Positions 458-60,492 of a stretch of 64,000 bases of DNA are shown one piece after another. Origin of the DNA: an uncultured Hyphomicrobiales bacterium (lineage in GTDB: Bacteria > Bacteroidota > Ignavibacteria > Kapaibacteriales > UBA2268); the NCBI GenBank assembly GCA_964464375.1, contig CAYXFU010000016.1, positions 15,074 to 79,073 on the forward strand, read 5' to 3'. The notes under the pieces are model-generated. The model was not told the origin of the DNA and made no database searches. It worked only from the letters and a program-made list of their open reading frames with translations. Position numbers and translations under genes: made by a program. Positions within the stretch are counted from its first letter, which is position 1, and the number at the start of each line of letters is the position of its first letter.

Positions 458-1921
458 TTATTTAATCAATATTTTAATTGCTTTATAGTATTGTACAGAT
501 GATATTGATATAAGATAAACACCATTCTGCAAAGTTTCAATATTATTAAGAGGTAGATAGGTTTCGCATGATATTGATGCCTTTTGCTCCAGCAACTTGT
601 CGCCTAGAACATTGAAGACTGTTATTGTTAGGTCAGAATTAATGCAATTTAGATTTCCAAAAAATAATTTATTGTTTTGAAAATACATGTTATTCTGGTC
701 ATTTTTAAAATCTTCCGCACTCAGAACATGATTAAAATCGTATATTTTACCGTCAGAATCTATGCCTTTCAGCTCAGAAAAATGAATTATTGGTGTCAAT
801 TCTGAATACTTTTTTGGCTCAAGAATTAAATTTGCTATAATATTATTAGTATTGTCAATTAGGGCACTTTCCTGCTCGTAGGAGCCTGTTGTAAATATAA
901 ATGACTTAGTATTCGGTTCAATAGCTGAGAATGTATAGGAATCGCTAAAAACGTTCCCGGATTCGATACCTAATATATTATAGTGTTCAGATAAATTAGT
1001 TAAATCGATCGATCCAGCGAAAGCAATAATATTTTCCACTGTATTAATCGAAATTGGATATCGTTCATATCTTGAATTGATATCAAATTTAATATCATCT
1101 TTTAGTTTTGGAAAATCAGAATTCAAAAAATTATGCCTTTTGGTGAAGTTTACAGGAACAACAAGCAGATCATTAATATTCACTTCACCGTTGCCGTCAC
1201 AATCAGAAAAAGTTACCAGTGAACTGTCCCAGGCTAGACATCTCTGGCTTGTCCAGTTTGTACTTGAGTATTGTCTCGAAAATGTTCTCGAATCCAAATG
1301 TCTTTGCCCAAAGTTGAGATATAAACCAATATTAGTGATATCAGTGACATCAACAACTTTGTCATTGTTTGCATCACCGGGCCACACATTAACAAAACCA
1401 TGAATAAAGTATGAAATATCAGTCTTCTGCAACTCGATAACTTTCTGGTTATTATTTGTATCAAGAACGAACCCCTGTGCCGTTGGGAATGACAATGTTA
1501 TAGATTGTCCATAAGGAGCGTTTTGGCTGACAGCAAACTCAAGAGTGATTATCTTTATGGGAGCAGGTTTCAGCTTGTTTGCGAAATCATTGGTCAATAC
1601 ACCGATGATTATATCGCCCTTATTCGTTGTTGTGTCAACTTTTGGAATAACCACACTGGCACTTTTGTCCCAAACGTCACCATAGCTGACAGCTGAGAGA
1701 CTAATATATTTACTTTGGTTATAGCTGATATGGATATTACTTCCATAACAATTTTGGATGCTGTCTATGCTTAGATCGATGGAAAAAAGATATGTTGCCG
1801 TTATGAAAGATGAACGGTTTGTATCGACATCGTTTCTGATAACTTTCAATTTTTGTGCATAATTTACGTTATAGGACAAAATGAGCAACAAAATGGTTAA
1901 TAATATTTTTTTCATATCCAA
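458..1921 (-). CDS. Secreted protein with dockerin-like or EF-hand-like Ca-binding repeats (GDANNDKVVDVTDI, CDGNGEVNINDLLV) and a T9SS-CTD-like C-terminus (GVYLISI...)
   Basis: N-terminal signal peptide MKKILLTILLLILSYNVNYAQ; paired D-x-N-x-D-G-x-V-N-x-x-D motifs; C-terminal beta-strand motif typical of Por secretion tails. Confidence 0.5.
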   Translation of the reverse strand: MDMKKILLTILLLILSYNVNYAQKLKVIRNDVDTNRSSFITATYLFSIDLSIDSIQNCYGSNIHISYNQSKYISLSAVSYGDVWDKSASVVIPKVDTTTNKGDIIIGVLTNDFANKLKPAPIKIITLEFAVSQNAPYGQSITLSFPTAQGFVLDTNNNQKVIELQKTDISYFIHGFVNVWPGDANNDKVVDVTDITNIGLYLNFGQRHLDSRTFSRQYSSTNWTSQRCLAWDSSLVTFSDCDGNGEVNINDLLVVPVNFTKRHNFLNSDFPKLKDDIKFDINSRYERYPISINTVENIIAFAGSIDLTNLSEHYNILGIESGNVFSDSYTFSAIEPNTKSFIFTTGSYEQESALIDNTNNIIANLILEPKKYSELTPIIHFSELKGIDSDGKIYDFNHVLSAEDFKNDQNNMYFQNNKLFFGNLNCINSDLTITVFNVLGDKLLEQKASISCETYLPLNNIETLQNGVYLISISSVQYYKAIKILIK

Positions 1922-2858: not shown

Positions 2859-4763
2859 TTATTTAATTTTCACAAATTTCCCGACTTTATCTCCAATCCG
2901 CACAAAATACATCCCAGTAGTTAGAGAAGTGACATTGATTTGTAGGGGTTCAAAATTTTGAACCCCTACAGTCATTACAGTTTGACCGAATACATTGAAG
3001 ATACAGATACCCTCAGATGGACTCCACTTGGCAAGTGGAGCCCATCTTCTCATATCGATTTCTACGAAATCTGATGCTGGATTGGGTGAAAGAATAAAAG
3101 ACTCTGCACTTTTGATATCCGATACATCTGTGATTAAATGAATAGATAATCTGGCTCTTTGAGGTGTCTTACATTCAGTTGTTAAACTTTGTGCTTCAAT
3201 ATAAACAACTGTATCTTTATAAACATATAATGAGAAATAATTTCTTGCTGACTGAAGCAGATTACCACCAACAGGTGAATCATACAGATAAAATGTTGAA
3301 TTTTTGGGAGACAAAGGTATTATTGAAATGTCCTGTTTTTTAATAAGCACAGTATCATTTACTAATACAGGTATTCCAGGATACACTTTAATAGATGTTT
3401 GATTTTCTTCCCCGATTGAAACAGGGTCGGTACTCCTAACTCTGATTTTGTAACTCTCACCTTCTGTAACATCTGAAGGTATTCCTACCTTAATTTTGCC
3501 TTGATAAATACTTTTGCTTTTACCTATAATTTTGACATTTGATGACCATGAACCGTTTGTGTCTGACAATTCTGCAATAAATTCATTTCCTGTTTTATAT
3601 AGTATATAAGTTTTGAAAGCCAGATCAAAGCTATCTCCAGGGCAAAATTGAAGTTTCATTGGCTTGGGGTCATCTGTATTAATTGTTAGCTTTTTGTTCC
3701 TGTAATAAATAATATAAAATTCTTTTATTGTTGTATCACTAATTACAAATTGATGTCTTGAAGGCTGGATTTGTGCTATTTCCCTCATGTCTGATTTGAA
3801 TTTGGAATTTGAATCAAGACTTTCATATAATAAAAATGTTGAATTTTGTGGGAAATTAATATCTTCATATTCTAATTTCAGTGGATAATCTGTTGCCTTA
3901 GAAAAGAACTTTACATGATAAATAAGAGGTGTAGATTCGTTTTTAAATTCTCTGATATCTCTAGAATTTGAATATGGTTTCTCGTCATTAGGGGCAATAT
4001 CGTATATTCCGTATTCTAAAGTATATGGAAGACTATCTATATAAAACCTGGCTTGAAAATTACGCATAATATAGTCAAAAGGACCTTCAGCATAACATGT
4101 ATCAGCATTCATACTTGCTCTGTAATGTGATCCAAATATCAGATTTGTTGTATCTATATTTTTTGAAACTAAAAATAACTCAATACCGGGTTTTGAAGTT
4201 GAATCAAACCATTCATAAGGATTATAGAAAATCCAAATCGGTACATCAACATTGACATAACCGCTGTCATTTAATTCTTTTGCAGTAAATAATAAATTTG
4301 CTGTATAATAGCCGGGTTTCATTGTTTTTGGAGGGATAAATTTCAAATCCAAATCTAAATAATTACCTTTTGTTAGGTTGAAAACATTACCACTAGTTAC
4401 ATAATTTGGAAAGGGATTCTGCTTTCCGGCTCCGGCAACTGATTTGAATACCAAGTATGGCTGATCGGAGCTAATCAGCATTGATTCGATCTTGGATGTA
4501 TCAGTTTTCAAGCTGATATTCATTATGCCGGAATGGGTATTACCTGTTCCTGAATCGGATGAAAATGGATTCCTGATTGAATAAGAATAAAGAGAGTTCT
4601 TCATTGTCGTTGGCAACCAACCAGTTTTTCTGTCAATGTTAAACATTAATTCTGCATTTGATGAGATTTTAGCCGAATTGTTATCCATTGCAGTAATAGA
4701 TTGAGCTGATGTGAGAGCATATCCCAGTAGGGTGACAATAACTATTAAGTATTTCATCTTCAT
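2859..4763 (-). CDS. Secreted protein with T9SS C-terminal sorting domain
   Basis: signal peptide; C-terminus SPNPASDFVEIDMRRWAPLAKWSPSEGICIFNVFGQ..GMYFVRIGDKVGKFVKIK. Confidence 0.6.
   Translation of the reverse strand: MKMKYLIVIVTLLGYALTSAQSITAMDNNSAKISSNAELMFNIDRKTGWLPTTMKNSLYSYSIRNPFSSDSGTGNTHSGIMNISLKTDTSKIESMLISSDQPYLVFKSVAGAGKQNPFPNYVTSGNVFNLTKGNYLDLDLKFIPPKTMKPGYYTANLLFTAKELNDSGYVNVDVPIWIFYNPYEWFDSTSKPGIELFLVSKNIDTTNLIFGSHYRASMNADTCYAEGPFDYIMRNFQARFYIDSLPYTLEYGIYDIAPNDEKPYSNSRDIREFKNESTPLIYHVKFFSKATDYPLKLEYEDINFPQNSTFLLYESLDSNSKFKSDMREIAQIQPSRHQFVISDTTIKEFYIIYYRNKKLTINTDDPKPMKLQFCPGDSFDLAFKTYILYKTGNEFIAELSDTNGSWSSNVKIIGKSKSIYQGKIKVGIPSDVTEGESYKIRVRSTDPVSIGEENQTSIKVYPGIPVLVNDTVLIKKQDISIIPLSPKNSTFYLYDSPVGGNLLQSARNYFSLYVYKDTVVYIEAQSLTTECKTPQRARLSIHLITDVSDIKSAESFILSPNPASDFVEIDMRRWAPLAKWSPSEGICIFNVFGQTVMTVGVQNFEPLQINVTSLTTGMYFVRIGDKVGKFVKIK
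3019..3043. repeat. In-frame 25-nt palindrome ggactccacttggcaagtggagccc inside the CTD coding region (encodes WAPLAKWSP); identical copy at 53907..53931
   Basis: palindrome seen directly; same sequence at the same CTD position in a second gene. Confidence 0.7.
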
Positions 4764-4774
4764 TTTATCCCATT

Positions 4775-5563
4775 TTACAATTTTATAAATTTCCCAACTT
4801 TATCCCCAATTCTCACAAAATACATCCCCGGAGGCAAACTGGAGATATCGATTCTTACTCCCTCCCTGCTCGCGGGGAGGGTTGGGGTGGGGTTAGGTGT
4901 GGCCTGTATTTCTCCCAGCACATTATATATACTCACGTCGCTTTGTAGGGGCGAACGGCCGTTCGCCCCTACGGATATTTCTATGAAATCTGTAGTTGGA
5001 TTAGGCGATACTTCAAAATCTTCTTTATTTTCTGGATTTTTTGATGGAACGTCCAAATTAGTATCCTCGTATCTTCTTAGATAATTGAAATTTGTAACAA
5101 GGCTTACATGTCCTATCTTATTTTCAACTGAATCTATGTTAGAATAATTCATCAGTCTTAGAAGCAAAACTCGTGGTAAAAATTTGGTGGTATCGGGTTC
5201 TTGAGGTAAATACTCCCTAAACCAAAATGTTCCATAAAGCGATTCAAAATGCTGAAATTCATTTTTTGTATTTAAATAGGTTGTAAGAATATCATGCCAT
5301 GTATATTCTATTATTGTGTCTTTTGGATAAATTCCAGATCTAGGAATAACATTATACTGAAATTCAACTCGAAAAATTTGTTTGGCATATAATTGTCCAA
5401 ATGTCGGTGACCAGTAACAGCTATCAACTTTGACCGAATCGGGATTTTGAAATCCCATCTTTTGATGCTTAAGTAGTTTTAGGCAACTGTCTGGTACTTG
5501 TGCATAATTTGCACCCAAACCAATAAAACTAAAATAAAGAAACATAAAGAATAATCTTTTCAT
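4775..5563 (-). CDS. Secreted protein with T9SS C-terminal sorting domain
   Basis: signal peptide MKRLFFMFLYFSFIGLGANYAQ; C-terminus SPNPTTDFIEISVGANGRSPLQSDVSIYNVLGEI..GMYFVRIGDKVGKFIKL. Confidence 0.6.
   Translation of the reverse strand: MKRLFFMFLYFSFIGLGANYAQVPDSCLKLLKHQKMGFQNPDSVKVDSCYWSPTFGQLYAKQIFRVEFQYNVIPRSGIYPKDTIIEYTWHDILTTYLNTKNEFQHFESLYGTFWFREYLPQEPDTTKFLPRVLLLRLMNYSNIDSVENKIGHVSLVTNFNYLRRYEDTNLDVPSKNPENKEDFEVSPNPTTDFIEISVGANGRSPLQSDVSIYNVLGEIQATPNPTPTLPASREGVRIDISSLPPGMYFVRIGDKVGKFIKL
4858..4881. repeat. In-frame GC hairpin ccctccctgctcgcggggaggg at a second variable site of the CTD (between NVLGEI and IDISSL)
   Basis: inverted repeat seen directly; the analogous site in the 53712 gene and the 52735 fragment carries a different hairpin, cctctcctttccaaggagggg. 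Confidence 0.55.
4945..4972. repeat. Perfect 28-nt palindrome gtaggggcgaacggccgttcgcccctac, in-frame in the CTD (encodes VGANGRSPL); related copies at 23153..23180 and 52927..52954
   Basis: perfect palindrome seen directly; recurs in orphan CTD copies. Confidence 0.75.
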
Positions 5564-14686: not shown

Positions 14687-14852
14687 AAAATTTGCTTAAT
14701 TAATTGATAATCATTAAAATTAAAAGATATGCAATTTACGGAAATATGGTTATTTATAAAAATTTGGTTAATCAACTCAGTTTCATATCAAAATATCCGA
14801 TAATAAATAATTATAACAGAAATTAATCGTCTGATGAAAAAAATTATTTTTG

Positions 14853-14892: not shown

Positions 14893-15567
14893 TTGAAAAA
14901 GAGAATTTTATATATAACTTCCTTGTTTCTTTTGCTGATATTCCCCATCTCGGCTATCGGTATGGATATTTCTGTGCACAAATGCAAGCATTCAGGCAAT
15001 TTACATTTCTCATTCTATCAGTTAGATTCTAAAAATCAGTATGATGATTGCTGCTGTAAAACTGAAGCGGAGAAAGCTGCAGAGCCAATACCAATGTCCT
15101 GCTGCGATTCTGAAACCACAGAAACAGCAAAACCCATTAACAAAGTGATAGAAAAGCAACAGGAATCTACACAAGTTGAGTCATGCTGCTCAAAAGCAAA
15201 AATGCCACCCAAAAGTAAGACAACTGTTGAAATTGAATCTAAATCAAATACTTCCGAGTCAACCAGTACAATTACTGAAAATATCAAATGCGAAAATGAG
15301 ATATCAAAACCAGTTACCTGCTGCGATATTTCTAAAGTATCTTTTTCTCTATCTTCAGCACCAATTCGGATTTTAAGTTCAGAGAAAACAATCAGAGCAA
15401 ATGTTTACATACCTCATTTGACTTTGATATCGATCCTTAGCTATCAAACTTCAGACAAATCAAAATGTGTTACAATTGACTATCCACTAAAGGAACCGGT
15501 TAATAAGATCATATCATTCATATCACTTCAATCCAATCAAAAGGATGATTCGGACAGTCATTCCTAG
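14893..15567 (+). CDS. Cysteine-rich secreted protein (CCC, SCC, TCC, HKCKH motifs), possible metal-binding
   Basis: signal peptide; many CC doublets and one triplet; acidic and low-complexity. Confidence 0.4.
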   Translation: MKKRILYITSLFLLLIFPISAIGMDISVHKCKHSGNLHFSFYQLDSKNQYDDCCCKTEAEKAAEPIPMSCCDSETTETAKPINKVIEKQQESTQVESCCSKAKMPPKSKTTVEIESKSNTSESTSTITENIKCENEISKPVTCCDISKVSFSLSSAPIRILSSEKTIRANVYIPHLTLISILSYQTSDKSKCVTIDYPLKEPVNKIISFISLQSNQKDDSDSHS

Positions 15568-15743
15568 TGTCTCTACAGTTATTAGCTGTAGAAACTTCCA
15601 ATATTATCAAGATAAAAAAAAGAACATGTCATTCTGATAAAACGAAGTATTTCAGGTATCTATAATACGGATTCGTTAATCAGAAATGACAAAGCAGAAG
15701 TATATTCCTGCATGAGAGATTACGTGAAAAGTCTGATTTAGAT

Positions 15744-15820
15744 GTCATTCCGAACGAAGTGAGGAATCTAGTCCGCATGAATACTAGATTCTCACGGTCG
15801 CTTCGCTCCCTCAGAATGAC
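15744..15820. repeat. 77-nt GTCATTC...GAATGAC hairpin repeat (family A, inverted orientation)
   Basis: gtcattccgaacgaagtgaggaatc...ctcacggtcgcttcgctccctcagaatgac. Confidence 0.65.
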
Positions 15821-15895
15821 AAAATCGTAGTTTTTACACAGCCGCAGGAGTAGGAATAACAAAAACATATTAATAAAATAACATTTGGAAAAAAA

Positions 15896-18145
15896 ATGAA
15901 ATTTAATAGAAGAAAAGCATTAATCTTTAATATTTGTTTGTTTGTAATAGCATTATCCTCCTTTGTATTCTCAAAAGATATTAGTGGTACAGTTTCAGGT
16001 CTTGGAGCAGACAATAAACCTGCGCCGCTGGTCAAAGCCTCGGTTCATTGGATTGGAACTTCTATCGGTGCAATTACCGATAAATCAGGAAAATTCCAGA
16101 TTGCGTCAACAAATAAATCAAACAAACTTGAAGTATCATATATTGGATACAAGAAAGACACATTGGAAGTGTCAGATTATTCTAAACCGATTGATGTCGT
16201 TTTAAAGGCCGATCTAACTCTGGACGCAATCACAGTCAATGCCGTTCAGCCTTCAAGACTTTTATCAAACAGCACCATAAAAACTGAATCAACAACATTG
16301 CGTGGCTTGCAGAAAGCTGCATGCTGTAATTTATCCGAGAGCTTTCAGACGAATCCATCTGTGGATGTGTCATTTACAAATGCAGTTACGGGTGCCAAGC
16401 AAATACAGTTGCTTGGGCTTCAGGGTGTATATATTCAAGCGCTAAATGAACAAGTTCCTTCAATGAGAGGTTTATCCGCTAATCTTGGTTTGGAATATGT
16501 ACCCGGACCATGGATGGAATCAATTCAGATATCTAAAGGATTAGCTTCTGTAGTTACTGGTTTTGAATCCATTAGCGGTCAAATGAATATCGAGTTTAAG
16601 AAACCTGAACATGAAATTCCTCTTTTCTTCAATGCATATATTAATAATATTGGGAGAGGAGAAGTAAACCTTACCTCAGCAATTAAACTTAGCGATAATG
16701 TCAGTACAATGATATTTGGGCACACAAGTTTCAATCAAGTTAAGGTAGATGATAATGCTGATTCATTCATTGATAAACCATTATCAAAGCAGTTCAATTT
16801 CATGAATAGATGGGACATTTGGGATGGTATATGGGAATCACGTACCATTATTAAAGGTCTCTATGATGAACGCAATGGCGGTCAGTCTGAATACTGGCCC
16901 AACAAGAACAACACTTTTTATGGCATGCAGATGAAGTCCCAGAAATTTGAATTCATAACAAAAAATGGATTTATTTTTCCTGAGGCTTCATATAGCAGTA
17001 TCGGGACTATCGTATCGCTCACACATTACAAAGTTGATTCATACTTTGATAAAGTGCTGTACAACGGGGAGGAAAATTCCTTGTATGCTAGAGTAATGTA
17101 TCAGTCACAACTGTTTGATTCAACTCATAAATACATGATTGGACTCAGCTATACTTCTGATAATTTTATCGAAAATCTTCAATCATTGGGCAAAACACAA
17201 CTTAAGTACTCACCCAAACTCGAATCTATACCGGGTGCTTTCATCGAATACACTTATTCAGGAATTCAGGATCTAACACTGATGGCTGGTTTCAGAGCTG
17301 ATTTTCCTAATAAATTTGCCCGTTTTCTTACTCCGAGATTTCATGCTCAGTACAGATTTGACGAAAATAATGCTATCAGGGCTTCTGTTGGGAAGGGATA
17401 CAGAATAGCAAATATTCATGCAGAAGATATCGGAATATTTGCAAGTTCCCGAAAACTGTTCATGGATGGAAAACAATCACCTGAAGAAGCATGGAATTAT
17501 GGAATGAACGCTTCAACATTGATTCCTTTGTTTGGTATCGATTTTACAGTGAATGCTGAGTTCTATAGAACGGAGTTCAAAAATCAGATTATAGTCGATA
17601 TGGAACAGAAGCAAACCGAAATGCATATCTATAACTTAAAGGGTCAATCATATTCAAATAGCTTTCAGATTGATGTGAGCGCAGAGCCGATTAATGGATT
17701 CATTATTACTACTGCTTACAGATTGAACGATGTAAAAATGACAATCAATGGTTCACTTGTCGATAAGCCGCTGCAGAGCCGTCAAAAGGGATTTTTGAAT
17801 CTTGCATATTCTACTTTCGGAGATGAATGGACATTCGACTTTACAGCAGAATACAATGGTAGCGGGAGATTGTTATCACTTGGATTCCTTGATACGTCAA
17901 TTTCAAAAGACCCATCAAATTGGATTGGCAATTCTCCGTCATTTATGTTGTATCATGCTCAGATAACAAAGAAATTCAAGAATTTTGATATCTATTTGGG
18001 CGGAGAAAATCTTTCGAATTACACACAGAAGGAAGTTATTCTTTCGCCGGATAACCCCAGAGGTCCATACTTTGATGGTGCTTTGGTTTGGGGACCGGTT
18101 ATCGGACGTATTATTTATTTAGGTATTAGATTAAGTATCAATTAA
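15896..18145 (+). CDS. TonB-dependent outer-membrane receptor (CarboxypepD_reg-like N-domain + plug + barrel)
   Basis: signal peptide; SGTVSG..KASVHWIGTSIGAITDKSGKFQI N-domain; plug motifs; 749 aa. Confidence 0.8.
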   Translation: MKFNRRKALIFNICLFVIALSSFVFSKDISGTVSGLGADNKPAPLVKASVHWIGTSIGAITDKSGKFQIASTNKSNKLEVSYIGYKKDTLEVSDYSKPIDVVLKADLTLDAITVNAVQPSRLLSNSTIKTESTTLRGLQKAACCNLSESFQTNPSVDVSFTNAVTGAKQIQLLGLQGVYIQALNEQVPSMRGLSANLGLEYVPGPWMESIQISKGLASVVTGFESISGQMNIEFKKPEHEIPLFFNAYINNIGRGEVNLTSAIKLSDNVSTMIFGHTSFNQVKVDDNADSFIDKPLSKQFNFMNRWDIWDGIWESRTIIKGLYDERNGGQSEYWPNKNNTFYGMQMKSQKFEFITKNGFIFPEASYSSIGTIVSLTHYKVDSYFDKVLYNGEENSLYARVMYQSQLFDSTHKYMIGLSYTSDNFIENLQSLGKTQLKYSPKLESIPGAFIEYTYSGIQDLTLMAGFRADFPNKFARFLTPRFHAQYRFDENNAIRASVGKGYRIANIHAEDIGIFASSRKLFMDGKQSPEEAWNYGMNASTLIPLFGIDFTVNAEFYRTEFKNQIIVDMEQKQTEMHIYNLKGQSYSNSFQIDVSAEPINGFIITTAYRLNDVKMTINGSLVDKPLQSRQKGFLNLAYSTFGDEWTFDFTAEYNGSGRLLSLGFLDTSISKDPSNWIGNSPSFMLYHAQITKKFKNFDIYLGGENLSNYTQKEVILSPDNPRGPYFDGALVWGPVIGRIIYLGIRLSIN

Positions 18146-18176
18146 TTCTATTCACATTCACATAAAGAGGTTTATA

Positions 18177-18890
18177 ATGAAAATAAATATAAGCAATTCC
18201 GGTATATTCCTTACAGTCTTAGTTATTACTATGTTCGGAATAATATCATTATCGCAGGCACAGACAGTAACTCAGCCACTTGCAGGAGTATCCACTTCAG
18301 CAAAGGTGTACACTTATACTCACATGCTTTCTCAGACTCAGAAAAAGGATATCAGATACATTATTATAAAAGCATCTAATGGCGATGTTAAGTCTTGTTT
18401 CGATGCTTGTGACGTTTGTTATCTTGCAAATAAAGGATATGTTCAGTCAGGGAATCTTCTAAGATGCAATAACTGTGGAAACACTTTTGCTATAGACGGA
18501 CTTGGATCACAAGGTGTAGGAGGATGTTGGCCCGGTCACCTTCCTCATACTCTTGATGCACAAAATGTGATCTTCACAGTTTCCGATCTTATCACCGGCG
18601 ATAAATACTATCCAACTAAAGCAGTAACAGCTGTTCAGGATGAACCTGTAAGAGAAATGGCTTTGAGCTTTAACTGGTTCATTAAATCTGATTTGCTGAC
18701 AGTCAGTATGGATAATGCAAGCGAGAGAAATATTTCCATATTCAATATTTCCGGTAAAATCTGTAAAACGCTCGCTTTTTCTTCTAATCAGATTACAGTT
18801 GATATTTCTGATTTATCTGTAGGTGTTTATTTGCTTTCGGTTGAAGAAAATGGCAGAACAACAAGTCAGACAATTGTTATTAACAGATAA
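18177..18890 (+). CDS. CxxC-x(n)-CxxC..GGCWP protein (possibly DUF2318-like metal-binding) fused to a T9SS CTD
   Basis: CFDACDVCYLANKGY..LRCNNCGNTF..GVGGCWPGH; C-terminus ISGKICKTLAF..LSVGVYLLSV. Confidence 0.45.
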   Translation: MKINISNSGIFLTVLVITMFGIISLSQAQTVTQPLAGVSTSAKVYTYTHMLSQTQKKDIRYIIIKASNGDVKSCFDACDVCYLANKGYVQSGNLLRCNNCGNTFAIDGLGSQGVGGCWPGHLPHTLDAQNVIFTVSDLITGDKYYPTKAVTAVQDEPVREMALSFNWFIKSDLLTVSMDNASERNISIFNISGKICKTLAFSSNQITVDISDLSVGVYLLSVEENGRTTSQTIVINR

Positions 18891-18924
18891 AATTTAACTA
18901 AGTCTAAAATTTGAAAGAAAAATA

Positions 18925-19581
18925 ATGAAAAAGATATATTTATACATATCTATATTCGCTTTGGTACTGTCTATGTTATTATCCGGTTGCAAAAAGGATA
19001 GTACACCTGTAGATCCAAATGTGGTTACAACTATTCCATCAATTCAAAGTTTATCTGCTGATAAGCTAGTGATAATGTATGGCAATGAGGATCATGCAAT
19101 CATCACATGCAATGCAAGCGGTGGAAATCTGAAATATACATGGGAAGTAGATCTGGGAGATATTATACCCCAAAATACTGACCGATCAAAAGTTAGTTAC
19201 ACAGGAGCCGCATGTTGTGTCGGAGAAAAGACAATAAATTGTACAGTATCTAACGATAAGGGTAGTGCAAGCAAGACAATTATTATTACTATACTGGAAA
19301 ACATTATTGTTCCGGATATTATTTCGATTGGAGTAGATAAAACTGAAATCAAGGCTGATGGCGTTGATGCCGCCAATCTTGTTTGTTATGCTATAGGTGG
19401 AAAACTCAATTACAAATGGGAAACAGATTGCGGCAACCTGACACCTGTTCCTGACGATAGCACTAGAATTACATTCACAGCTACAAATCAATGTATAGGT
19501 GATAAAACAATAAAGTGTACCGTCAGCAATGAAAAAGGGAATGTTTCCAAAACACAGGTTATCACAGTAGTTGCTAAGTAG
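18925..19581 (+). CDS. Lipoprotein with two tandem Ig/PKD-like repeats containing conserved Cys
   Basis: lipobox LLSGC; internal repeats ITCNASGGNLKYTWEVD../LVCYAIGGKLNYKWETD.. Confidence 0.5.
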   Translation: MKKIYLYISIFALVLSMLLSGCKKDSTPVDPNVVTTIPSIQSLSADKLVIMYGNEDHAIITCNASGGNLKYTWEVDLGDIIPQNTDRSKVSYTGAACCVGEKTINCTVSNDKGSASKTIIITILENIIVPDIISIGVDKTEIKADGVDAANLVCYAIGGKLNYKWETDCGNLTPVPDDSTRITFTATNQCIGDKTIKCTVSNEKGNVSKTQVITVVAK

Positions 19582-19653
19582 GTTTAGTCCATAAATTTAT
19601 TAAAACACACTTTGTCATACTTTCGCGTGCGACAGTGTAAAAACTACGATTAT

Positions 19654-19767
19654 GTCATTCTGAGGGAGCGAAGCGACCGTGAGTTCCGGAGGACTGCGAA
19701 GCACATCCAGTCTGTTTTTTTACTGTAAAAGACAAATACATGGATTCTTCACTTCGTTCAGAATGAC
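19654..19767. repeat. 114-nt GTCATTC...GAATGAC hairpin repeat (family A)
   Basis: gtcattctgagggagcgaagcgaccgtgag...cacttcgttcagaatgac. Confidence 0.65.
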
Positions 19768-19790
19768 GTCAACAATTGACTTTTTTATCC
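19768..19790 (+). terminator. Hairpin gtcaacaattgac + T6, intrinsic terminator after the 18925 gene
   Basis: stem-loop followed by T-tract. Confidence 0.5.
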
Positions 19791-19873
19791 AGTTCTTTCA
19801 CAGGAATGACAAAAAATATACTAGACACAAACTAAATTAACAAAAATTTGAAATATCAAAAGTACTCAATATC

Positions 19874-21142
19874 ATGAAATCAAAATTAAGGATATTAACC
19901 TTGCTATTCTATACATTTGCTCTTATTGTAATATCAAACACTGATGCTATGGCTCAGTGCTGCGCTGCAGGAAACCCCTCCAGCACAAACTGTTCATTCG
20001 ATCAAGGTGGCAAGAATAGTCTTCAGATAAGCTATTTCCACATGTACTCTTCGTCAGACGTATATTATGAAGGTGTAAATCAATCAAACTATAAATATGC
20101 CACAAGTGATTTCAACTTCTCATCGCTTGCTTTATCTTATGGAATAACTAATGATCTTAGATTGACTGCTGATCTGGGATATTTCTTGAATAAAAGCCAG
20201 ACTTTCACTAATGGTTACAATCGCCAGACTTCAGGATTGTCCGATGCGACTTTTGGAATAAGTTACCAAACTTACATAAGTTCAGACAAATTATTCGATA
20301 TAACGCAGTCATTAAGATTTACGGTACCCGTAGGACAGTTCAATCAGGAATATGAAGGAGTTATCCTTCCTATTGATTTTCAGCCATCATCGGGAAATTT
20401 CAAATATAATCTTGGATTAGTTCTATCCAAAAGATTTAACGGAAGTCCATTTTCACTGGTTTCTGTCAATTCTATGGAAGTTTCACAATTCATAGAGACA
20501 GAAAATTCCAGATATAAATATGGAAATCTATATAATGTATCATTGATTGGAAGGTATGCTTTTGAGTTTGGGCTGACTGCCTCTCTACAGATGCGTTTCG
20601 AGGTTAGAGAGAAAGCATTGAACGGACCGAAATCTCAGGACAATACATTCAATTACATCAATGCTTCAGGAGGTGTTGTTGCGTTTATATCTCCACAATT
20701 ATCATATAATTTTTACAAGGATTTTGGTTTCACACTTCAGTACAATCATCCCCTTTATAAGAATGTAAACGGACTTCAGCTTACAAATAAATATTCGATA
20801 TCAGCAGGTTTGTCCAAAAGTTTTAACTTTTCCTCAGATGAAGAGCCAATCGCTGAAATCGAGCGGGATGCATCTTTGTCAAAATTATCGATAAATGTAA
20901 GCGGTAACTGCGAGATGTGCAAAGCAAGGATTGAAGAAACTGTCAACGAAATAAGCAATGTATCTTCATCAGACTGGAACTCCGATACTAAGGAATTGAT
21001 AGTATATTATAAAGATAACAAGCCCGATGTCGATAAAATAGAACAAGCTCTTGCGTCAGTTGGACACGACACAGAAAAGTATAAAGCCAAACTTGAGGTT
21101 TATGAAAAACTCCCTAAATGCTGTCTATATAGGAACAAATAA
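19874..21142 (+). CDS. Outer-membrane beta-barrel (transporter/porin-like) with C-terminal heavy-metal-associated (HMA)-like domain
   Basis: signal peptide; alternating barrel-like body; C-terminus LSINVSGNCEMCKARIEETV..ALASVGHDT resembles the GMxCxxC ferredoxin-like HMA fold. Confidence 0.5.
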   Translation: MKSKLRILTLLFYTFALIVISNTDAMAQCCAAGNPSSTNCSFDQGGKNSLQISYFHMYSSSDVYYEGVNQSNYKYATSDFNFSSLALSYGITNDLRLTADLGYFLNKSQTFTNGYNRQTSGLSDATFGISYQTYISSDKLFDITQSLRFTVPVGQFNQEYEGVILPIDFQPSSGNFKYNLGLVLSKRFNGSPFSLVSVNSMEVSQFIETENSRYKYGNLYNVSLIGRYAFEFGLTASLQMRFEVREKALNGPKSQDNTFNYINASGGVVAFISPQLSYNFYKDFGFTLQYNHPLYKNVNGLQLTNKYSISAGLSKSFNFSSDEEPIAEIERDASLSKLSINVSGNCEMCKARIEETVNEISNVSSSDWNSDTKELIVYYKDNKPDVDKIEQALASVGHDTEKYKAKLEVYEKLPKCCLYRNK

Positions 21143-21179
21143 CAAAACAATGTTATCCAAGTGAATATCTATAGTTAAA

Positions 21180-21211
21180 GGGTTGTCTCAAAACTGGGAC
21201 AACCTTTTTGT
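21180..21211 (+). terminator. Hairpin ggttgtctcaaaactgggacaacc + T5
   Basis: stem-loop followed by T-tract. Confidence 0.65.
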
Positions 21212-23360: not shown

Positions 23361-24602
23361 TTATAACTTCACGAATTTACCGACTCGATCCCCAATCCTC
23401 ACAAAATACATCCCCGGAGCTAAACCGGAAATGTCTATCCGTAGGGGTAATTCATGAATTTCCCCAACAGACAATACAGTTTGACCATAAACATTGAAGA
23501 TTTTGAATTCGCTTTGTTCGGACACGGCACGCCGTGTCCCTACGGATATTTCAATGAAATCGGATGCGGGATTGGGAGAAATAGAAAAATTAAAGTCGTT
23601 AATTGTTTCTTGAATACCAGTTATACTTTTTAAACTGATTAGACTTATATATTCAGAATTACTTATAACTAAATAATTGCTATCTGATGTAAACTTAGCA
23701 TATAAAGCTCTTAGACTTGTTGATGCGATAACAGTACCATCATTAATATCCCATATTAAAATAGGATCTAAACTCCAAAATACACCTGCAACAATAAATC
23801 TATTATTAGGTGATACAGATAATGAATATACTGCGCTACTTGTTTTGATATTTCTTAATAGAGACCTGCTCTTTGTATCACATACATTAACTCCACTTGT
23901 ATTGTTATATTTAAAATAATCGCAAACAAATTTAGAGCCGTCATTATTAAATGTAGCATAATATGATGAACCCTCGTCTTTAATTACGATGGAATCAGTT
24001 TGTAGATCGGTTAATGAGGCAGGAGTAAATCTTGTTGCTACGGCTAAATATCTATCATCTTTAGAAAATTCGATAAAATTGGGTTGTTGTCTTTCCATCC
24101 ATTCACCTATCAAGCATGGATATTGTTTATAGATTTCATCAGTTTGGAAATTTCTTATAATTACGCCTTTCTCCATTAAAGAATAAGCTAAATACTTATT
24201 ATCATGGGAGAGCGCAGCATAAAATGATCCACTAGATAAATTAACCTTTATTTCTTTAACTAAAACCCATGTTTTCGTATCCCAAACAGTTAATTTACCA
24301 TAGTTTCCATCATCAGAACCAGTAGCAATGAGAAATGAACCGTCATAAGAATATTTTACAGCAAATAATGTATAATCACAGACTTTTATTTGCTTGAATA
24401 TAGTTCCAGTTAAAAGATTAACAATTCTTATTGTTCCATCTTTTCCGCTTAATGAAATAAATTTATTGTCTGGTGAGACGTCGAAATAAGAAGAAATACC
24501 AAATTCATTTCTCCAAACCACACTAGAGTCAAGTGATATTTGGCTCTTTACATTTGCAATAAAGAAGATGAAGAAGAGTAGAATAAGAATGAATTGTTTC
24601 AT
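23361..24602 (-). CDS. WD40/beta-propeller-like secreted protein with T9SS CTD
   Basis: signal peptide; C-terminus SPNPASDFIEISVGTRRAVSEQ..GMYFVRIGDRVGKFVKL; in-frame palindrome ggacacggcacgccgtgtcc at 23516..23535. Confidence 0.6.
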   Translation of the reverse strand: MKQFILILLFFIFFIANVKSQISLDSSVVWRNEFGISSYFDVSPDNKFISLSGKDGTIRIVNLLTGTIFKQIKVCDYTLFAVKYSYDGSFLIATGSDDGNYGKLTVWDTKTWVLVKEIKVNLSSGSFYAALSHDNKYLAYSLMEKGVIIRNFQTDEIYKQYPCLIGEWMERQQPNFIEFSKDDRYLAVATRFTPASLTDLQTDSIVIKDEGSSYYATFNNDGSKFVCDYFKYNNTSGVNVCDTKSRSLLRNIKTSSAVYSLSVSPNNRFIVAGVFWSLDPILIWDINDGTVIASTSLRALYAKFTSDSNYLVISNSEYISLISLKSITGIQETINDFNFSISPNPASDFIEISVGTRRAVSEQSEFKIFNVYGQTVLSVGEIHELPLRIDISGLAPGMYFVRIGDRVGKFVKL

Positions 24603-24688: not shown

Positions 24689-26299
24689 TTATTTCCTCAG
24701 CCTGACAAACTGCTTTCCATTGAAAATGAAGATTCTGTTCAGAAGCGTTGAGTCTAATATATTTACAATGGCTTTGGTCGTGATTTGGGGCTTTATTTCG
24801 GTTGTTATCTTGATTGTCTGGAAGCCGTCGCGATAGGAGAGCTTCTCGTCTTTGATCACTGCACGCGAGATAGTGCCGTAAGGTACGAATCGGGCATTTG
24901 TGGCTGTGAGTTCGATTTGGCTTGGAGTTATCAGCTTATAGGTTATCTTTGTGTCCTTCTGCATTTCGATTCTCAACTGTGGCGATACCTCGATGTTACG
25001 GTTGTTCAGATAGTACCAGACAGCCTGTGTGAAACCGATTTTGTAGGTGTTGATCCTGTCAATCTTATCGGGGACTGCAAGGAAGATCATTGTGTCCTTG
25101 ACTCCCGGAGTATATTTCAGATTCGAGAGCGATGTTTGGGCAACATTCGCTGCGTTATGCCACTTGCCGGCTCGCACAGCAGTAACGGTGATAGAGAAAA
25201 TGCCTGCAATTATGATTATGAGCATAATAGCCTGATGCAGTGGTTTGCGGTAATCTATCCTGAACAGGCTGAGAGCCGAGATAATCAATCCCATTGATGC
25301 TGTGAACGAATACCACTGCCCGAACCTGGCGCATGCCGGAATGATGAATATGATGAACCAGCCTATTCCGAAGAGGAAAAGTTTCAGTTGTTTTCCTCGA
25401 AGAGTGATTAGTTTCCTGATTATCAGATAAAGTAATGAAAATGCGATTGTCCAGCCGAAAAGTGCGTAGATAAAGTTTGACCTAAGCCAAGTGACAAGAA
25501 TCTCGAACTGGTCTGCCTGTATGAAGCTGATCGGAATGTATAGAAGGAAGTTCTGAATGAATTTCCATAAGCTAATGCTCTCGAAGTTCGATGACTGGAA
25601 AGGAGTTCCGCCGATAACGAAGAATCTGTAAAGAAGCACAAACGAAACCAGAGCAAATGCTATGATGGATGCGTATAGAGCAGGTTTTATCCTTGATTTA
25701 TTTGTATCTTCTTTCAGGAGTAACAGTAATGGAAGCAGAACTGCGGCATAAGCAGGTTCCTTGCTCATGATTGAAAGCATAAACAGAAAGGCTGATGATA
25801 TTATTAGTAGTATTTTCTTTTCCGATCTTAGAAATACATGTAACGATAAAAGAAGGAACAGAGCCATGATAGTATCGGTGCGTCCAGCAATCCATGCGAC
25901 TGATAGTTCATGTGCAGGGAGAACAGTGAATATAAACGCTCCGATTCGTGCAGATATTTCCTCGAACTCCAGTTTTTGAAGGAGTTTGTAGAAAAGCCAG
26001 CAAATCGCTGAATAGATGGCGATGTTCGTGATATGATAGGGAATGGAGTTGTATTGGTAAAAGAACTTGGTCAGCGAATCCAGAGTCCAAACGACGGGAC
26101 GCCAGTATGGTCCGCCTACTTCGCGCTGGAAGAAGTTATTGAATGTCTCGAAGAATGTATGTGGCGACATCCAGCTTAATATTAAAAAGTCCTCATTGAT
26201 TATTCCGACTGAGATGTATCCTATCCATGGGATTACAGCCAGAACCAACAGGAACTTGGTGAAGAATTTTGAATTCGACCAGACTTTTTGTTCTTCCAT
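24689..26299 (-). CDS. Polytopic integral membrane protein, possibly a GT-C/PMT-like glycosyltransferase
   Basis: more than 10 predicted TM helices; family call is weak. Confidence 0.35.
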   Translation of the reverse strand: MEEQKVWSNSKFFTKFLLVLAVIPWIGYISVGIINEDFLILSWMSPHTFFETFNNFFQREVGGPYWRPVVWTLDSLTKFFYQYNSIPYHITNIAIYSAICWLFYKLLQKLEFEEISARIGAFIFTVLPAHELSVAWIAGRTDTIMALFLLLSLHVFLRSEKKILLIISSAFLFMLSIMSKEPAYAAVLLPLLLLLKEDTNKSRIKPALYASIIAFALVSFVLLYRFFVIGGTPFQSSNFESISLWKFIQNFLLYIPISFIQADQFEILVTWLRSNFIYALFGWTIAFSLLYLIIRKLITLRGKQLKLFLFGIGWFIIFIIPACARFGQWYSFTASMGLIISALSLFRIDYRKPLHQAIMLIIIIAGIFSITVTAVRAGKWHNAANVAQTSLSNLKYTPGVKDTMIFLAVPDKIDRINTYKIGFTQAVWYYLNNRNIEVSPQLRIEMQKDTKITYKLITPSQIELTATNARFVPYGTISRAVIKDEKLSYRDGFQTIKITTEIKPQITTKAIVNILDSTLLNRIFIFNGKQFVRLRK

Positions 26300-60093: not shown

Positions 60094-60174
60094 GATAATA
60101 GAATTGTATTATTCAAATTTAAAATTATTATTATTATAAAGCAAGTTTATTTAGTGAGGAGTGAATAGTTTGGA

Positions 60175-60492
60175 ATACATAGATTCCTCACCTACGGTTC
60201 GGAATGACGAAGGGGCTGTCATTCAGAAGGAGCGTAGCGACTGAAGGAATCCAGGCTGTTTTCTTCGAGAAAAATACAAATACATGGATTCCTCATTTCA
60301 TTCGGAATGACGGAATGGCTGTCATTCTGCGGGAGCATAGTGACTGAAGGAATCCAGGCTGTTTTTTTACAGAGGGAATACAAAATACATGGATTCCTCA
60401 CTATGTTCGGAATGGCAAAAAGGCTGTCATTCAGAAGGAGCGTAGCGACTGTAAGTTCCGAAGGACTGCGAAGCGCATCCAGGCTGTTTTTT
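60175..60492. repeat. Tandem array of three ~104-nt units of the GTCATTC...GAATGAC hairpin repeat
   Basis: gtcattc begins at 60218, 60321 and 60425; each unit carries gtcattc[at]g[ac]..gagcgtagcgactg..ggaatccaggctgtttt and tacatggattcctca..ttcggaatgac arms. Confidence 0.7.

What the first reader, a model, noticed from the sequence alone, without database searches (positions are those of the whole stretch)
14893..21142. Putative metal-acquisition or homeostasis locus: Cys-rich protein, TonB-dependent receptor, CxxC/CTD protein, lipoprotein, barrel with HMA domain
Five co-oriented genes make up the locus. First, a secreted protein rich in CC/CCC motifs and an HKCKH motif. Second, a CarboxypepD_reg-plug-barrel TonB-dependent receptor. 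Third, a protein with paired CxxC..GGCWP motifs (reminiscent of DUF2318 iron-transport-associated proteins) fused to a T9SS CTD. Fourth, a lipoprotein with duplicated Cys-containing Ig-like repeats. Fifth, an OM barrel ending in a ferredoxin-like HMA domain (SGNCEMCKARIE). The combination of surface or secreted Cys-ligand proteins with a TonB transporter suggests uptake of a metal (Cu/Zn/Fe) or a metallophore. This architecture is not a textbook system. Hairpin repeats lie in both flanks (15744..15820, 19654..19767).
Basis: inference. Interest (0 to 1): 0.55.

Follow-up and report, generated by a model that had tools for sequence, protein, structure and literature searches.

The report
Outer-membrane copper-handling locus with cysteine pairs
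Five neighbouring genes in an uncultured Ignavibacteria/Kapabacteria-like bacterium encode outer-membrane and cell-surface proteins that nearly all carry conserved cysteine pairs, and their relatives sit beside copper genes, so this is probably an undescribed way of moving copper across the outer membrane.

Summary
The locus is two recurrent modules.

- **Module A:** a rare Cys-rich leader protein (g1) plus a TonB-dependent receptor (g2). The receptor's only mature cysteines are an invariant plug motif, KAACCNLSESF.
- **Module B:** g3, a type IX secretion (T9SS) cargo protein with a DUF2318 domain. This domain has a Rieske-like fold and an all-Cys CxxC-x15-CxxC site.
- g4, a PKD-like lipoprotein with an invariant CC.
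- g5, a 12-stranded COG4313-type channel with an N-terminal QCC and a C-terminal HMA domain ending in LPxCC.

The g4-g5 pair is adjacent in 73 of 77 related loci. In close relatives module B lies directly after a Cus-type Cu/Ag efflux pump, or beside CueP or a T9SS multicopper oxidase. The same HMA-CC domain is fused to CusB-like adaptors. Modules A and B are adjacent in at least three lineages.

My best reading is an outer-membrane relay for copper, most likely Cu(I), that passes the metal between thiol groups. Uptake is favoured over detoxification, but direction is inferred, not shown. The hairpins are a dispersed ~105-nt repeat and are not specific to this locus. I found no Fur box, no riboswitch and no publication on the system. 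Interest is moderate to high.

The parts
14893..15567 (+). g1: 224-aa Cys-rich leader protein. It has a conserved hydrophobic N-terminus followed by HKCKHxG. A variable spacer carries the CCC/CC/CC/CC motifs, and the C-terminus has the conserved YPLKEPxxxIISFI motif.
   Evidence: ORF; no Pfam or NCBIfam hit. The family is rare: 38 representatives among 1.84 billion proteins. C31, C99 and C143-C144 are invariant. A g1 profile finds a homologue directly upstream of the TBDR in 5 of 5 TBDR loci. It also finds one at the head of the copper clusters in L006 and L011, and before a Cyc2-like gene in L009 and L010.
15614..15834 (.). Dispersed hairpin repeat copies in the g1-g2 spacer. Not specific to the locus.
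   Evidence: 91-nt hairpin, -29.5 kcal/mol, z -4.3.
15896..18145 (+). g2: 749-aa TonB-dependent receptor with a CarboxypepD_reg-like N-terminal extension, a plug and a barrel.
   Evidence: Pfam hits. More than 6,600 homologues. The nearest solved relative is XusA (9gbc), which lacks the CC.
16322..16327 (+). Codons for C143-C144 of g2, in the plug motif KAACCNLSESF. These are the only cysteines of the mature protein.
   Evidence: Invariant in 45 homologues down to 42% identity. Also present in the TBDRs of L007, L012, L013, L014, L060 and L081.
18177..18890 (+). g3: secreted DUF2318 domain (about nt 18330-18611) fused to a T9SS type A C-terminal sorting domain (about nt 18690-18881).
18925..19581 (+). 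g4: 218-aa lipoprotein made of two PKD-like repeats. The invariant vicinal pair C97-C98 (TGAACCVGEK) is encoded at nt 19213-19218.
   Evidence: PKD 26.4 bits and alignment A5. A g4-like gene lies directly upstream of the barrel in 73 of 77 loci. CC is present in 74 of 78 homologues, and the other four have CxxC at the same place.
19649..19772 (.). Dispersed hairpin repeat copy that enlarges the g4-g5 spacer.
   Evidence: -42.3 kcal/mol, z -3.8. In relatives the g4-g5 gap is 0-40 nt.
19874..21142 (+). g5: outer-membrane 12-stranded COG4313-type barrel (residues about 49-318). The mature N-terminus carries QCCAAGNP (nt 19955-19963). A C-terminal HMA domain (nt about 20879-21073, motif GNCEMCKARIE) is followed by a tail, LPKCCLYR (CC at nt 21119-21124).
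   Evidence: Model pLDDT 89.8. Foldseek top hits are the COG4313 channel 4rl8 (TM-score normalised to target length, TMt, 0.80-0.83; E 3e-16) and FapF. The HMA part matches CopZ 6ff2 (E 1.4e-5). Q28, C29 and C30 are invariant; C346, C349, C416 and C417 are conserved in at least 90% of sequences. N-terminal CC in 80 of 81 barrels; C-terminal CC in 45 of 47 HMA-fused ones.
21177..21208 (+). Terminator-like hairpin (14-bp stem followed by a T-run) that closes the locus.

Best explanation
The locus encodes an outer-membrane and cell-surface trafficking system for a thiol-loving (thiophilic) metal, most likely Cu(I). It is built from two modules that recur together.

**Module A (g1 and g2).** g2 is an energised TonB-dependent importer whose plug carries an invariant vicinal Cys pair. 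In relatives it is followed by a small periplasmic HMA-CC chaperone. In this window that role would fall to the HMA-CC domain of g5. g1 is a Cys-rich protein, either membrane-anchored or periplasmic, of unknown role. I suggest it buffers or chaperones the metal.

**Module B (g3, g4 and g5).**
- g3 is exported by the type IX secretion system and displayed on the surface. It carries a Rieske-fold domain with an all-Cys site (CxxC-x15-CxxC plus GGCWP), which could capture the metal or reduce Cu(II).
- g4 is a lipoprotein with a conserved CC pair.
- g5 is a 12-stranded channel. By analogy with the solved COG4313 channel, its N-terminal QCC segment occupies the lumen from the periplasmic side. Its C-terminal HMA-CC domain faces the periplasm.

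**Proposed mechanism.** The metal passes by ligand exchange from dithiol to dithiol: surface protein, then lipoprotein, then the channel's N-terminal CC, then HMA CxxC, then the tail CC. The TBDR provides a parallel high-affinity route.

**Shown here:** domain identities, folds, motif conservation, gene linkage and copper-gene neighbourhoods.

**Inferred:** metal identity, topology, the relay itself and the direction. I put import at about 60:40 over export or sequestration.
For: **Domains and folds.**

**Gene linkage.**
- The g3-g4-g5 triad is present in every close g5 locus examined.
- The g4-g5 pair is adjacent in 73 of 77 loci.
- g1 lies upstream of the TBDR in 5 of 5 TBDR loci.
- Small HMA proteins follow the TBDR in L007, L012 and L013.
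- Modules A and B are adjacent in the window, in its sister genome, in L007 and in the distant L059 and L060.

**Copper context.**
- CusA-OEP-CusB(HMBD) lies immediately upstream of the triad in L001 and L003. A T9SS multicopper oxidase and CueP lie next to it.
- CueP is present in L006 and L025.
- L060 carries a true multicopper oxidase with a CTD, a TBDR and several HMA proteins.
- The L011 CusA has the Cus-type TM4 motif AIGVIVDSSIVMVEN, and the CusB-like proteins carry WTCTMHPQV.
- The g5 HMA is about 50% identical to HMA domains of CusB-like adaptors. All of these share the HMA + LPxCC module.

**Vicinal cysteines.**
- The motifs are invariant or near-invariant in g2, g4 and g5.
- All nine CC dipeptides in the window's ORFs of 200 aa or more fall in g1, g2, g4 and g5.

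**Channel analogy.** In the solved COG4313 channel the N-terminal ~14 residues fold into the lumen from the periplasmic side (PMC4493636).

**Precedent.** OprC binds copper through a plug cysteine (PMC8610252).
Against: - There is no experimental data on any member.
- The window itself has no Cus, CueP, multicopper oxidase, P-type ATPase or metal regulator.
- Only 6 of 35 long related loci carry independent copper-specific genes.
- The more distant, HMA-less g4-barrel pairs sit with ArsR, DsbD-like, ArsP-type permease, thioredoxin and rhodanese genes. The core pair may therefore serve other thiol-reactive solutes.
- HMA domains and vicinal cysteines also bind Hg, Ag, Cd, Zn and As(III).
- Adjacency to Cus efflux pumps argues for detoxification at least as much as for uptake.
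- COG4313 channels studied so far are linked to hydrophobic substrates (PMC4493636).
- The position of the TBDR's CC relative to the ligand pocket was not determined.
- The N-terminal segment of g5 is modelled with low confidence (pLDDT 40-53).
Confidence: 0.55

Rival explanations
1. Copper, silver or mercury detoxification rather than acquisition. Periplasmic Cu(I) would be collected by the HMA-CC domain and released through the g5 channel. Surface proteins g3 and g4 would sequester or oxidise it outside. The TBDR would be an unrelated or regulatory neighbour.
For: In L001 and L003 the triad lies directly downstream of, and co-oriented with, CusA-OEP-CusB. CueP and a multicopper oxidase lie beside it. 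The HMA-CC module is fused to efflux adaptors. JGI annotators called g5 a 'mercuric ion binding protein'. Vicinal Cys pairs are the hallmark of MerT and MerA (my own knowledge).
Against: - Cus systems already have their own outer-membrane factor.
- TonB-dependent receptors import. One with the same CC theme and the same HMA-CC partner recurs next to the module in three lineages.
- No merA, merR or merT is in the window.
- A passive 12-strand channel gives no obvious driving force for export.
Confidence: 0.25
2. Iron acquisition. g2 would be a siderophore or iron TBDR, with a DUF2318 protein acting as in the Fet/Ftr (P19) iron uptake systems.
For: The only studied DUF2318 protein, C. jejuni FetA, belongs to an iron-uptake cluster (PMC10783030). 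JGI names the TBDR a ferrienterochelin receptor. NCBI calls g3 homologues 'Fe-S-containing protein'. The fold is Rieske-like.
Against: - The Fur-like site is not above chance: 2 hits against 0.81 expected, and it is absent from relatives.
- No Ftr1, P19, ABC or siderophore genes are nearby.
- The neighbours in relatives are copper genes.
- g3 lacks a twin-arginine signal, so a preassembled Fe-S cluster is unlikely (inference).
- The closest solved TBDT, XusA, lacks the CC.
Confidence: 0.07
3. The g4-g5 core is a channel for a non-metal solute that is thiol-reactive or hydrophobic, such as a persulfide, polysulfide or organoarsenical. The HMA domain would be a lineage-specific add-on.
For: Distant g4-barrel pairs without HMA lie next to ArsR, DsbD_2, ArsP_1 permease, thioredoxin and rhodanese genes. 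The COG4313 family is linked to hydrophobic substrates.
Against: In the window's own clade every g5 has the HMA-CC fusion. Its partners are metal-binding proteins and copper genes.
Confidence: 0.08
4. The five genes are unrelated neighbours: a generic TBDR operon that happens to lie beside a separate three-gene operon.
For: The modules do occur apart: L012-L014 have the TBDR module alone and L008 has the triad alone. A 292-nt spacer with a repeat separates g4 from g5, and 328 nt separate g1 from g2.
Against: Adjacency recurs in lineages as far apart as 36% identity. Both modules share the rare CC motif and the HMA-CC partner. The gaps between g2, g3 and g4 are only 31 and 34 nt.
Confidence: 0.05

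Closest known systems
OprC/NosA ionic-copper TonB-dependent transporters (Pseudomonas; PMC8610252)
   Same: A TonB-dependent outer-membrane transporter with an essential plug cysteine proposed to bind copper. It would serve copper supply to cuproenzymes.
   Different: OprC uses CxxxM (plug) plus HxM (barrel) and a methionine track. g2 has a vicinal CC about 35 residues after the likely TonB box and no other mature cysteine. It did not match OprC in a profile search of the PDB. It has a CarboxypepD_reg N-terminal extension and belongs to the FCB group.
CrtA chelated-copper TBDT family (Bordetella; PMC12914433) and MbnT methanobactin receptors
   Same: TBDTs dedicated to copper import.
   Different: Those import chelated copper. 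No chalkophore genes are present here, and a sequence search found no relationship.
CusCFBA Cu/Ag efflux with CusF/CusB metallochaperone hand-off
   Same: Periplasmic Cu(I) hand-off between binding domains. The same HMA-CC module is fused to CusB-like adaptors, and relatives of the triad lie next to Cus operons.
   Different: The window has no RND pump, adaptor or OEP. The ligands here are thiolates rather than the Met/His/Trp sites of E. coli CusF and CusB (my own knowledge). The outer-membrane component is a 12-strand monomeric barrel, not a TolC-like trimer.
COG4313 / PF13557 outer-membrane channels (Pput2725, SphA, TcpY; PMC4493636) and FapF
   Same: [quoted passage not shown]
   Different: The known members are linked to hydrophobic substrates or amyloid export. 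None has an HMA fusion, a QCC N-terminus or an obligate CC-lipoprotein partner.
Mer system relay (MerP HMA -> MerT CC -> MerA NmerA/C-terminal CC)
   Same: Works like it: a soft metal passed between an HMA CxxC site and vicinal cysteine pairs (my own knowledge).
   Different: No MerA, MerR or MerT is present. The components are in the outer membrane and on the surface, not the inner membrane and cytoplasm. The genomic context is copper.
C. jejuni FetA / Bordetella FtrD-type DUF2318 proteins (PMC10783030)
   Same: The same PF10080 domain with two CxxC motifs, facing outside the cytoplasm, in a metal-uptake context.
   Different: FetA is an 8-TM inner-membrane protein with a YHS domain. g3 is a soluble T9SS cargo protein with no TM region beyond its signal peptide.

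Membership tests
TonB-dependent transporter (g2) | 22-strand barrel domain (PF00593) | tested here: met
   63.3 bits against a cut-off of 27.
TonB-dependent transporter (g2) | Plug domain (PF07715) | tested here: inconclusive
   21.3 bits against a cut-off of 23.9 for the window protein. Many homologues carry PF07715.
TonB-dependent transporter (g2) | TonB box and TonB dependence | not testable with these tools
   A candidate TLDAITVNA follows the N-terminal extension (read). No functional test was possible.
OprC/NosA copper TBDT | CxxxM (plug) plus HxM (barrel) copper site and sequence relatedness | tested here: not met
   Mature g2 has only C143-C144 and no CxxxM. The profile search of the PDB did not return OprC at E <= 0.001.
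PF10080 DUF2318/FtrD-like (g3) | Profile match above the gathering score; conserved CxxC...CxxC | tested here: met
   72.5 bits against 26.3. C78, C81, C97 and C100 are invariant.
FetA/FtrD membrane proteins | Polytopic inner-membrane architecture (8 TM, YHS domain) | tested here: not met
   g3 is 237 aa with a signal peptide, DUF2318 and a CTD only. The FetA architecture is taken from PMC10783030.
T9SS type A cargo (g3) | C-terminal sorting domain (PF18962 / TIGR04183) | tested here: met
HMA domain PF00403 (g5 C-terminus) | Profile match above the gathering score | tested here: inconclusive
   23.9 bits against 24.8. Many homologues carry PF00403.
HMA domain PF00403 (g5 C-terminus) | Ferredoxin-like beta-alpha-beta-beta-alpha-beta fold with CxxC in the first loop | tested here: met
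   The model has E336-342, H347-358, E365-369, E374-379 and H386-395. The motif is GNCEMC. CopZ 6ff2 matches at E 1.4e-5.
COG4313 / PF13557 channel (g5 barrel) | Sequence profile match | tested here: inconclusive
   16.3 bits against a cut-off of 22. Many homologues carry PF13557.
COG4313 / PF13557 channel (g5 barrel) | [quoted passage not shown] | tested here: met
   Foldseek hit to 4rl8: E 3e-16, TM-score 0.80-0.83. Lumen insertion of the N-terminus was not resolved (pLDDT 40-53).
PKD-domain lipoprotein (g4) | PKD profile and lipobox | tested here: met
   PKD 26.4 bits against 23.5. The lipobox is LLSGC. A lipobox-like motif occurs in 66 of 78 homologues.
CusCFBA efflux system | RND pump, adaptor and OEP genes in the locus | tested here: not met
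   None in the window. They are present only in relatives' loci.
mer operon | MerA reductase, MerR, MerT/MerP set | tested here: not met
   The window ORFs scanned have no such families. There is only weak similarity to the HMA part of MerTP.

The most novel reading that the evidence does not exclude
The FCB-group bacteria (Fibrobacterota-Chlorobiota-Bacteroidota, including Ignavibacteria, Kapabacteria and marine Bacteroidota-like lineages) possess a previously unrecognised outer-membrane metal pathway. Cu(I) is passed stepwise between vicinal-cysteine sites: a T9SS-displayed capture protein, a CC lipoprotein, a COG4313 channel whose lumen plug carries QCC, and a periplasmic HMA-CC domain. A CC-plug TonB transporter forms the energised branch. 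This would be the first thiolate relay across an outer membrane, the first metal role for a COG4313 channel, and the first for T9SS cargo.
Probability: 0.35. Interest if true: 0.8.

Novelty: new variant of a known kind. Interest (0 to 1): 0.62.

Why it matters
How Gram-negative bacteria bring copper across the outer membrane is known for only a few proteobacterial transporters: OprC, CrtA and MbnT.

This locus points to a different, multi-component solution in a large and mostly uncultured part of the bacterial tree. Many members of that group rely on cuproenzymes such as N2O reductase, haem-copper oxidases and multicopper oxidases. Many also live where copper is locked up by sulfide.

If the reading is right, it would:
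- give functions to several unannotated families: g1, the CC-PKD lipoprotein, the QCC barrel, the HMA-CC module and a soluble DUF2318 protein;
- link type IX secretion to metal homeostasis;
- supply sequence motifs (KAACCNLSESF, QCCAAGNP, LPxCC) that can be mutated or used to mine metagenomes.

Tried and rejected
- **Riboswitch or RNA element in the long spacers.** Rfam at gathering thresholds found nothing in the whole window.
- **Fur box.** The site TGATAATCATTAAAA at 14705-14719 is not above chance: 2 hits against 0.81 expected, and 21 of 100 shuffles do as well. It is absent from all 98 related loci. By eye I saw no shared operator upstream of g1 homologues.
- **Sigma-70 promoter scan.** It found 29 sites against 28.9 expected, so it is uninformative.
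- **Hairpins as locus-specific signals.** Rejected. They are a dispersed repeat.
- **Direct sequence match of g2 to solved copper TBDTs.** None found.
- **The gene after g1 in L009 and L010 as a relative of g2 or g5.** Rejected: BLASTP E was 0.3 or worse. It has a Cyc2-like architecture instead.
- **First attempt to scan genomes with the 19-sequence g1 alignment.** It failed because no conserved stretch was found. A narrower alignment gave only 3 loci.
- **My first multicopper-oxidase tally.** It was inflated by the shared T9SS CTD. Redone with the N-terminal part only, 3 ORFs are true (2 distinct loci: L001 with its duplicate L002, and L060).
- **afdb50 fold search.** Not available.
- **Literature.** I found nothing describing this system.
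Full report
**1. The observation**

The five co-oriented ORFs are present exactly as described. The locus is bounded upstream by divergently transcribed pheT and trmB, and downstream by a strong terminator-like hairpin at 21177-21208 followed by a DegP/HtrA gene.

- g2 has CarbopepD_reg_2 (45.1 bits) and a TonB-dependent barrel (63.3 bits). Plug scores 21.3, just under its 23.9 cut-off.
- g3 has PF10080 DUF2318/FtrD-like (72.5 bits against 26.3) plus a type IX secretion (T9SS) C-terminal domain (43.2 against 27).
- g4 has a lipobox and a PKD hit (26.4 against 23.5).
- g5 has an HMA hit 0.9 bit below the cut-off (23.9 against 24.8). A CopZ match in the PDB (E 1.4e-5) and a confident ferredoxin-like model rescue it.
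- g1 matches nothing in Pfam or NCBIfam.

The hairpins are real: predicted folding energies are well below shuffled controls (z -4.3 and -3.8). However, they lie in the g1-g2 and g4-g5 spacers, not the flanks. They are copies of a dispersed ~105-nt element with 10 hits in the window against 0.01 expected. In relatives the g4-g5 gap is only 0-40 nt, so the repeat has simply been inserted here.

**2. Structures**

*g5.* The model (pLDDT 89.8) is a 12-stranded barrel (residues about 49-318), a flexible linker, an HMA domain (336-400) and a short tail. Its best structural matches are the COG4313 channel Pput2725 (4rl8, TM-score 0.80-0.83, E 3e-16) and FapF.

The strand number is even, so by standard outer-membrane-protein topology both termini should be periplasmic (inference). 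In Pput2725 the N-terminal ~14 residues fold into the lumen from the periplasmic side (PMC4493636).

The invariant cysteines (C78-x2-C81-x15-C97-x2-C100, plus C117 in GGCWP) reproduce the spacing of the Rieske CxH-x15-17-CxxH loops, but with all-Cys ligands (the comparison rests on my own knowledge). g3 has an ordinary Sec signal and no twin-arginine motif. A preassembled Fe-S cluster therefore seems unlikely, and a mononuclear metal site or a redox-active dithiol site seems more plausible (inference).

**3. A shared motif**

A vicinal cysteine pair recurs through the locus.

- g1 has CCC, CC, CC and CC, with C99 and C143-C144 invariant in its family.
- The only mature cysteines of g2 are C143-C144 in KAACCNLSESF. 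They are invariant in 45 homologues down to 42% identity and present in all related TBDRs fetched.
- g4 has an invariant TGAACCVGEK.
- g5 begins its mature chain with an invariant QCCAAGNP and ends with LPxCC after the HMA domain.

Across 80 further loci:
- the N-terminal CC is in 80 of 81 barrels;
- the tail CC is in 45 of 47 HMA-fused barrels;
- CC is in 74 of 78 g4 homologues, and the remaining four have CxxC at the same position.

In the window, all nine CC dipeptides found in ORFs of 200 aa or more lie in g1, g2, g4 and g5.

**4. Gene linkage: two modules**

*Module B.* Homologues of g5 occur in Ignavibacteria, Kapabacteria, other FCB-group MAGs and marine metagenomes.
- The g3-g4-g5 triad is present in every close g5 locus examined: L001, L003, L006, L007 and L008.
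- The minimal core is g4 plus the barrel, adjacent in 73 of 77 loci.
- The third partner upstream of g4 is DUF2318-CTD in the window's clade. In another clade it is an HMA-CTD protein with a Crp-family regulator (16 loci). The surface-displayed metal-binding partner is therefore interchangeable.

*Module A.* The g1 family is rare: 38 representatives in 1.84 billion proteins.
- A g1 homologue precedes the TBDR in all five TBDR loci.
- A small signal-peptide-bearing HMA protein follows the TBDR in L007, L012 and L013.

*Both together.* The modules are adjacent in the window, in a sister genome that keeps pheT-g1-g2-g3-g4-g5, in L007, and in the distant marine loci L059 and L060. They also occur apart (L008, L012-L014). 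The locus is therefore a recurrent juxtaposition, not an indivisible unit.

**5. Which metal**

The window itself carries no other metal genes. The case for copper comes from relatives.

- In a Kapabacterium MAG and an Ignavibacteria MAG the triad lies immediately after CusA-OEP-CusB. Heavy-metal-binding-domain proteins, a T9SS multicopper oxidase and CueP lie alongside.
- That CusA has the Cus-type TM4 motif (AIGVIVDSSIVMVEN; compare E. coli CusA AIGAMVDAAIVMIEN, from my own knowledge). The adaptors carry WTCTMHPQV.
- CueP recurs in L006 and L025.
- L060 combines a true multicopper oxidase with a CTD, three HMA proteins, a CC-plug TBDR, a Crp regulator, an HMA-CTD protein, g4 and a barrel-HMA.
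- The g5 HMA is about 50% identical to HMA domains fused to CusB-like adaptors of Bacteroidales.
- The HMA + LPxCC module is shared by g5, the small periplasmic HMAs, the HMA-CTD cargo proteins and those adaptors.

Limits on this evidence:
- Only 6 of 35 distinct long loci carry independent copper-specific genes. The figure is 15 of 35 if separate HMA proteins are counted, and 4 of 6 among close relatives.
- Distant HMA-less g4-barrel pairs lie with ArsR, DsbD-like, ArsP-type permease, thioredoxin and rhodanese genes. The core pair may serve thiophilic solutes more broadly.

**6. Mechanism proposed**

*Shown here:*
- an energised outer-membrane importer with a conserved plug dithiol;
- a T9SS cargo protein with a Cys4(+1) site;
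- a CC lipoprotein tightly linked to a 12-strand channel with QCC at its N-terminus and HMA-CC at its C-terminus.

*Inferred:* Cu(I) is captured at the surface by g3 or its HMA-CTD counterpart. It passes to g4, enters the g5 channel via the luminal QCC, and is received by the periplasmic HMA CxxC and tail CC. The TBDR gives a parallel high-affinity route that hands off to an HMA-CC chaperone. g1 may buffer or chaperone the metal on the periplasmic side.

Precedents are the plug cysteine of OprC (PMC8610252) and the CxxC-to-CC hand-offs of the Mer system (my own knowledge).

I favour import because TonB transporters import and because surface capture proteins make most sense for scavenging. Adjacency to Cus pumps keeps detoxification a serious rival, at about 25%.

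**7. Comparison with known systems**

- The locus works like OprC/NosA, CrtA or MbnT copper import, and like CusF/CusB or Mer-type hand-off chains.
- It fails membership of the OprC family (no CxxxM-HxM, no sequence relationship). It also fails the FetA/FtrD architecture, Cus and Mer.
- It does belong to the TBDT, T9SS cargo, PF10080, HMA, PKD and (structurally) COG4313 families.
- Full-text searches found only the C. jejuni Fet work for DUF2318 and nothing on this arrangement.

**8. Verdict**

The feature is real. It is conserved as modules and unannotated in the public sources I could see, where the genes are named 'hypothetical', 'ferrienterochelin receptor' or 'mercuric ion binding protein'.

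It is best filed as a new variant of outer-membrane copper trafficking. Metal identity is moderately supported, direction is unresolved, and there are clear experiments to settle both. Interest 0.62.

Noticed in passing
window 15628, 15801, 19654, 27160, 27260, 29120, 49446, 60218, 60321, 60426; tandem array 60174-60451: A dispersed ~105-nt hairpin-forming repeat whose core is GTCATTCTGAGGGAGCGAAGCGACCGTGAG paired with its imperfect complement. It occupies many intergenic spacers and forms 2.6 tandem copies at 60174-60451. It looks like a REP/MITE-type element.
   Followed up: partly
L010 10001-16240 and L009 3090-5174: A g1 homologue is followed by a 429-435-aa protein with an N-terminal FARKYQTSCNTCH (a single CXXCH haem motif) and a barrel ending in Phe. 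That is the architecture of a Cyc2-type fused cytochrome-porin. In L010 it is followed by cupredoxin-like, COX2-like and cytochrome c genes. Pfam gave no hit, and the Cyc2 assignment is my reading only.
   Followed up: partly
L076, L083-L090 (e.g. L088 7124-10888, L089 5955-6278, L085 1436-3245): Distant g4-barrel pairs without HMA (about 32-35% identity) lie next to ArsR-family regulator, DsbD_2-like membrane protein, ArsP_1 (PF03773) permease, thioredoxin-like and rhodanese genes. This suggests the core pair may handle other thiol-reactive solutes.
   Followed up: partly
proteins P0322-P0398: Stand-alone DUF2318 proteins of about 150 aa are common in DPANN archaea (Woesearchaeota, Aenigmarchaeota, Nanoarchaeota) and Patescibacteria. 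One (P0387) is fused to DsbA/thioredoxin-like domains.
   Followed up: no
P0088 and P0089-P0120 (alignment A8): CusB-like RND adaptors of Bacteroidales (Carboxylicivirga, Draconibacterium) carry the HMA domain. In P0088, the one I aligned, it is present in three tandem copies, each followed by the same L(P/H)GCC tail. I did not find this HMA-CC subtype described.
   Followed up: partly
window 14893-15567 and 18925-19581: Gene callers appear to truncate g1. Its full sequence with the TTG start is absent from the protein collection. A 140-aa fragment, and a 201-aa call in the sister genome, exist instead. They also truncate g4 to 202 aa, which removes its signal peptide and lipobox.
   Followed up: yes
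window 458-1921, 2859-4763, 4775-5563, 23361-24602, 46858-48744, 53712-54950: The window is rich in T9SS C-terminal-domain cargo genes, including dockerin-like, Ig-like and WD40 beta-propeller proteins. The 1709-aa ORF at 54964-60093 and the 536-aa ORF at 24689-26299 have no assignment. The first was not scanned; the second had no Pfam hit.
   Followed up: no
L039-L074 (marine loci), about 1-3.5 kb upstream of g4: Many marine loci share a conserved upstream trio: a GT1 glycosyltransferase, a 373-aa protein with no Pfam hit, and an ABC ATPase on the opposite strand. This is probably lineage synteny rather than a functional link.
   Followed up: partly
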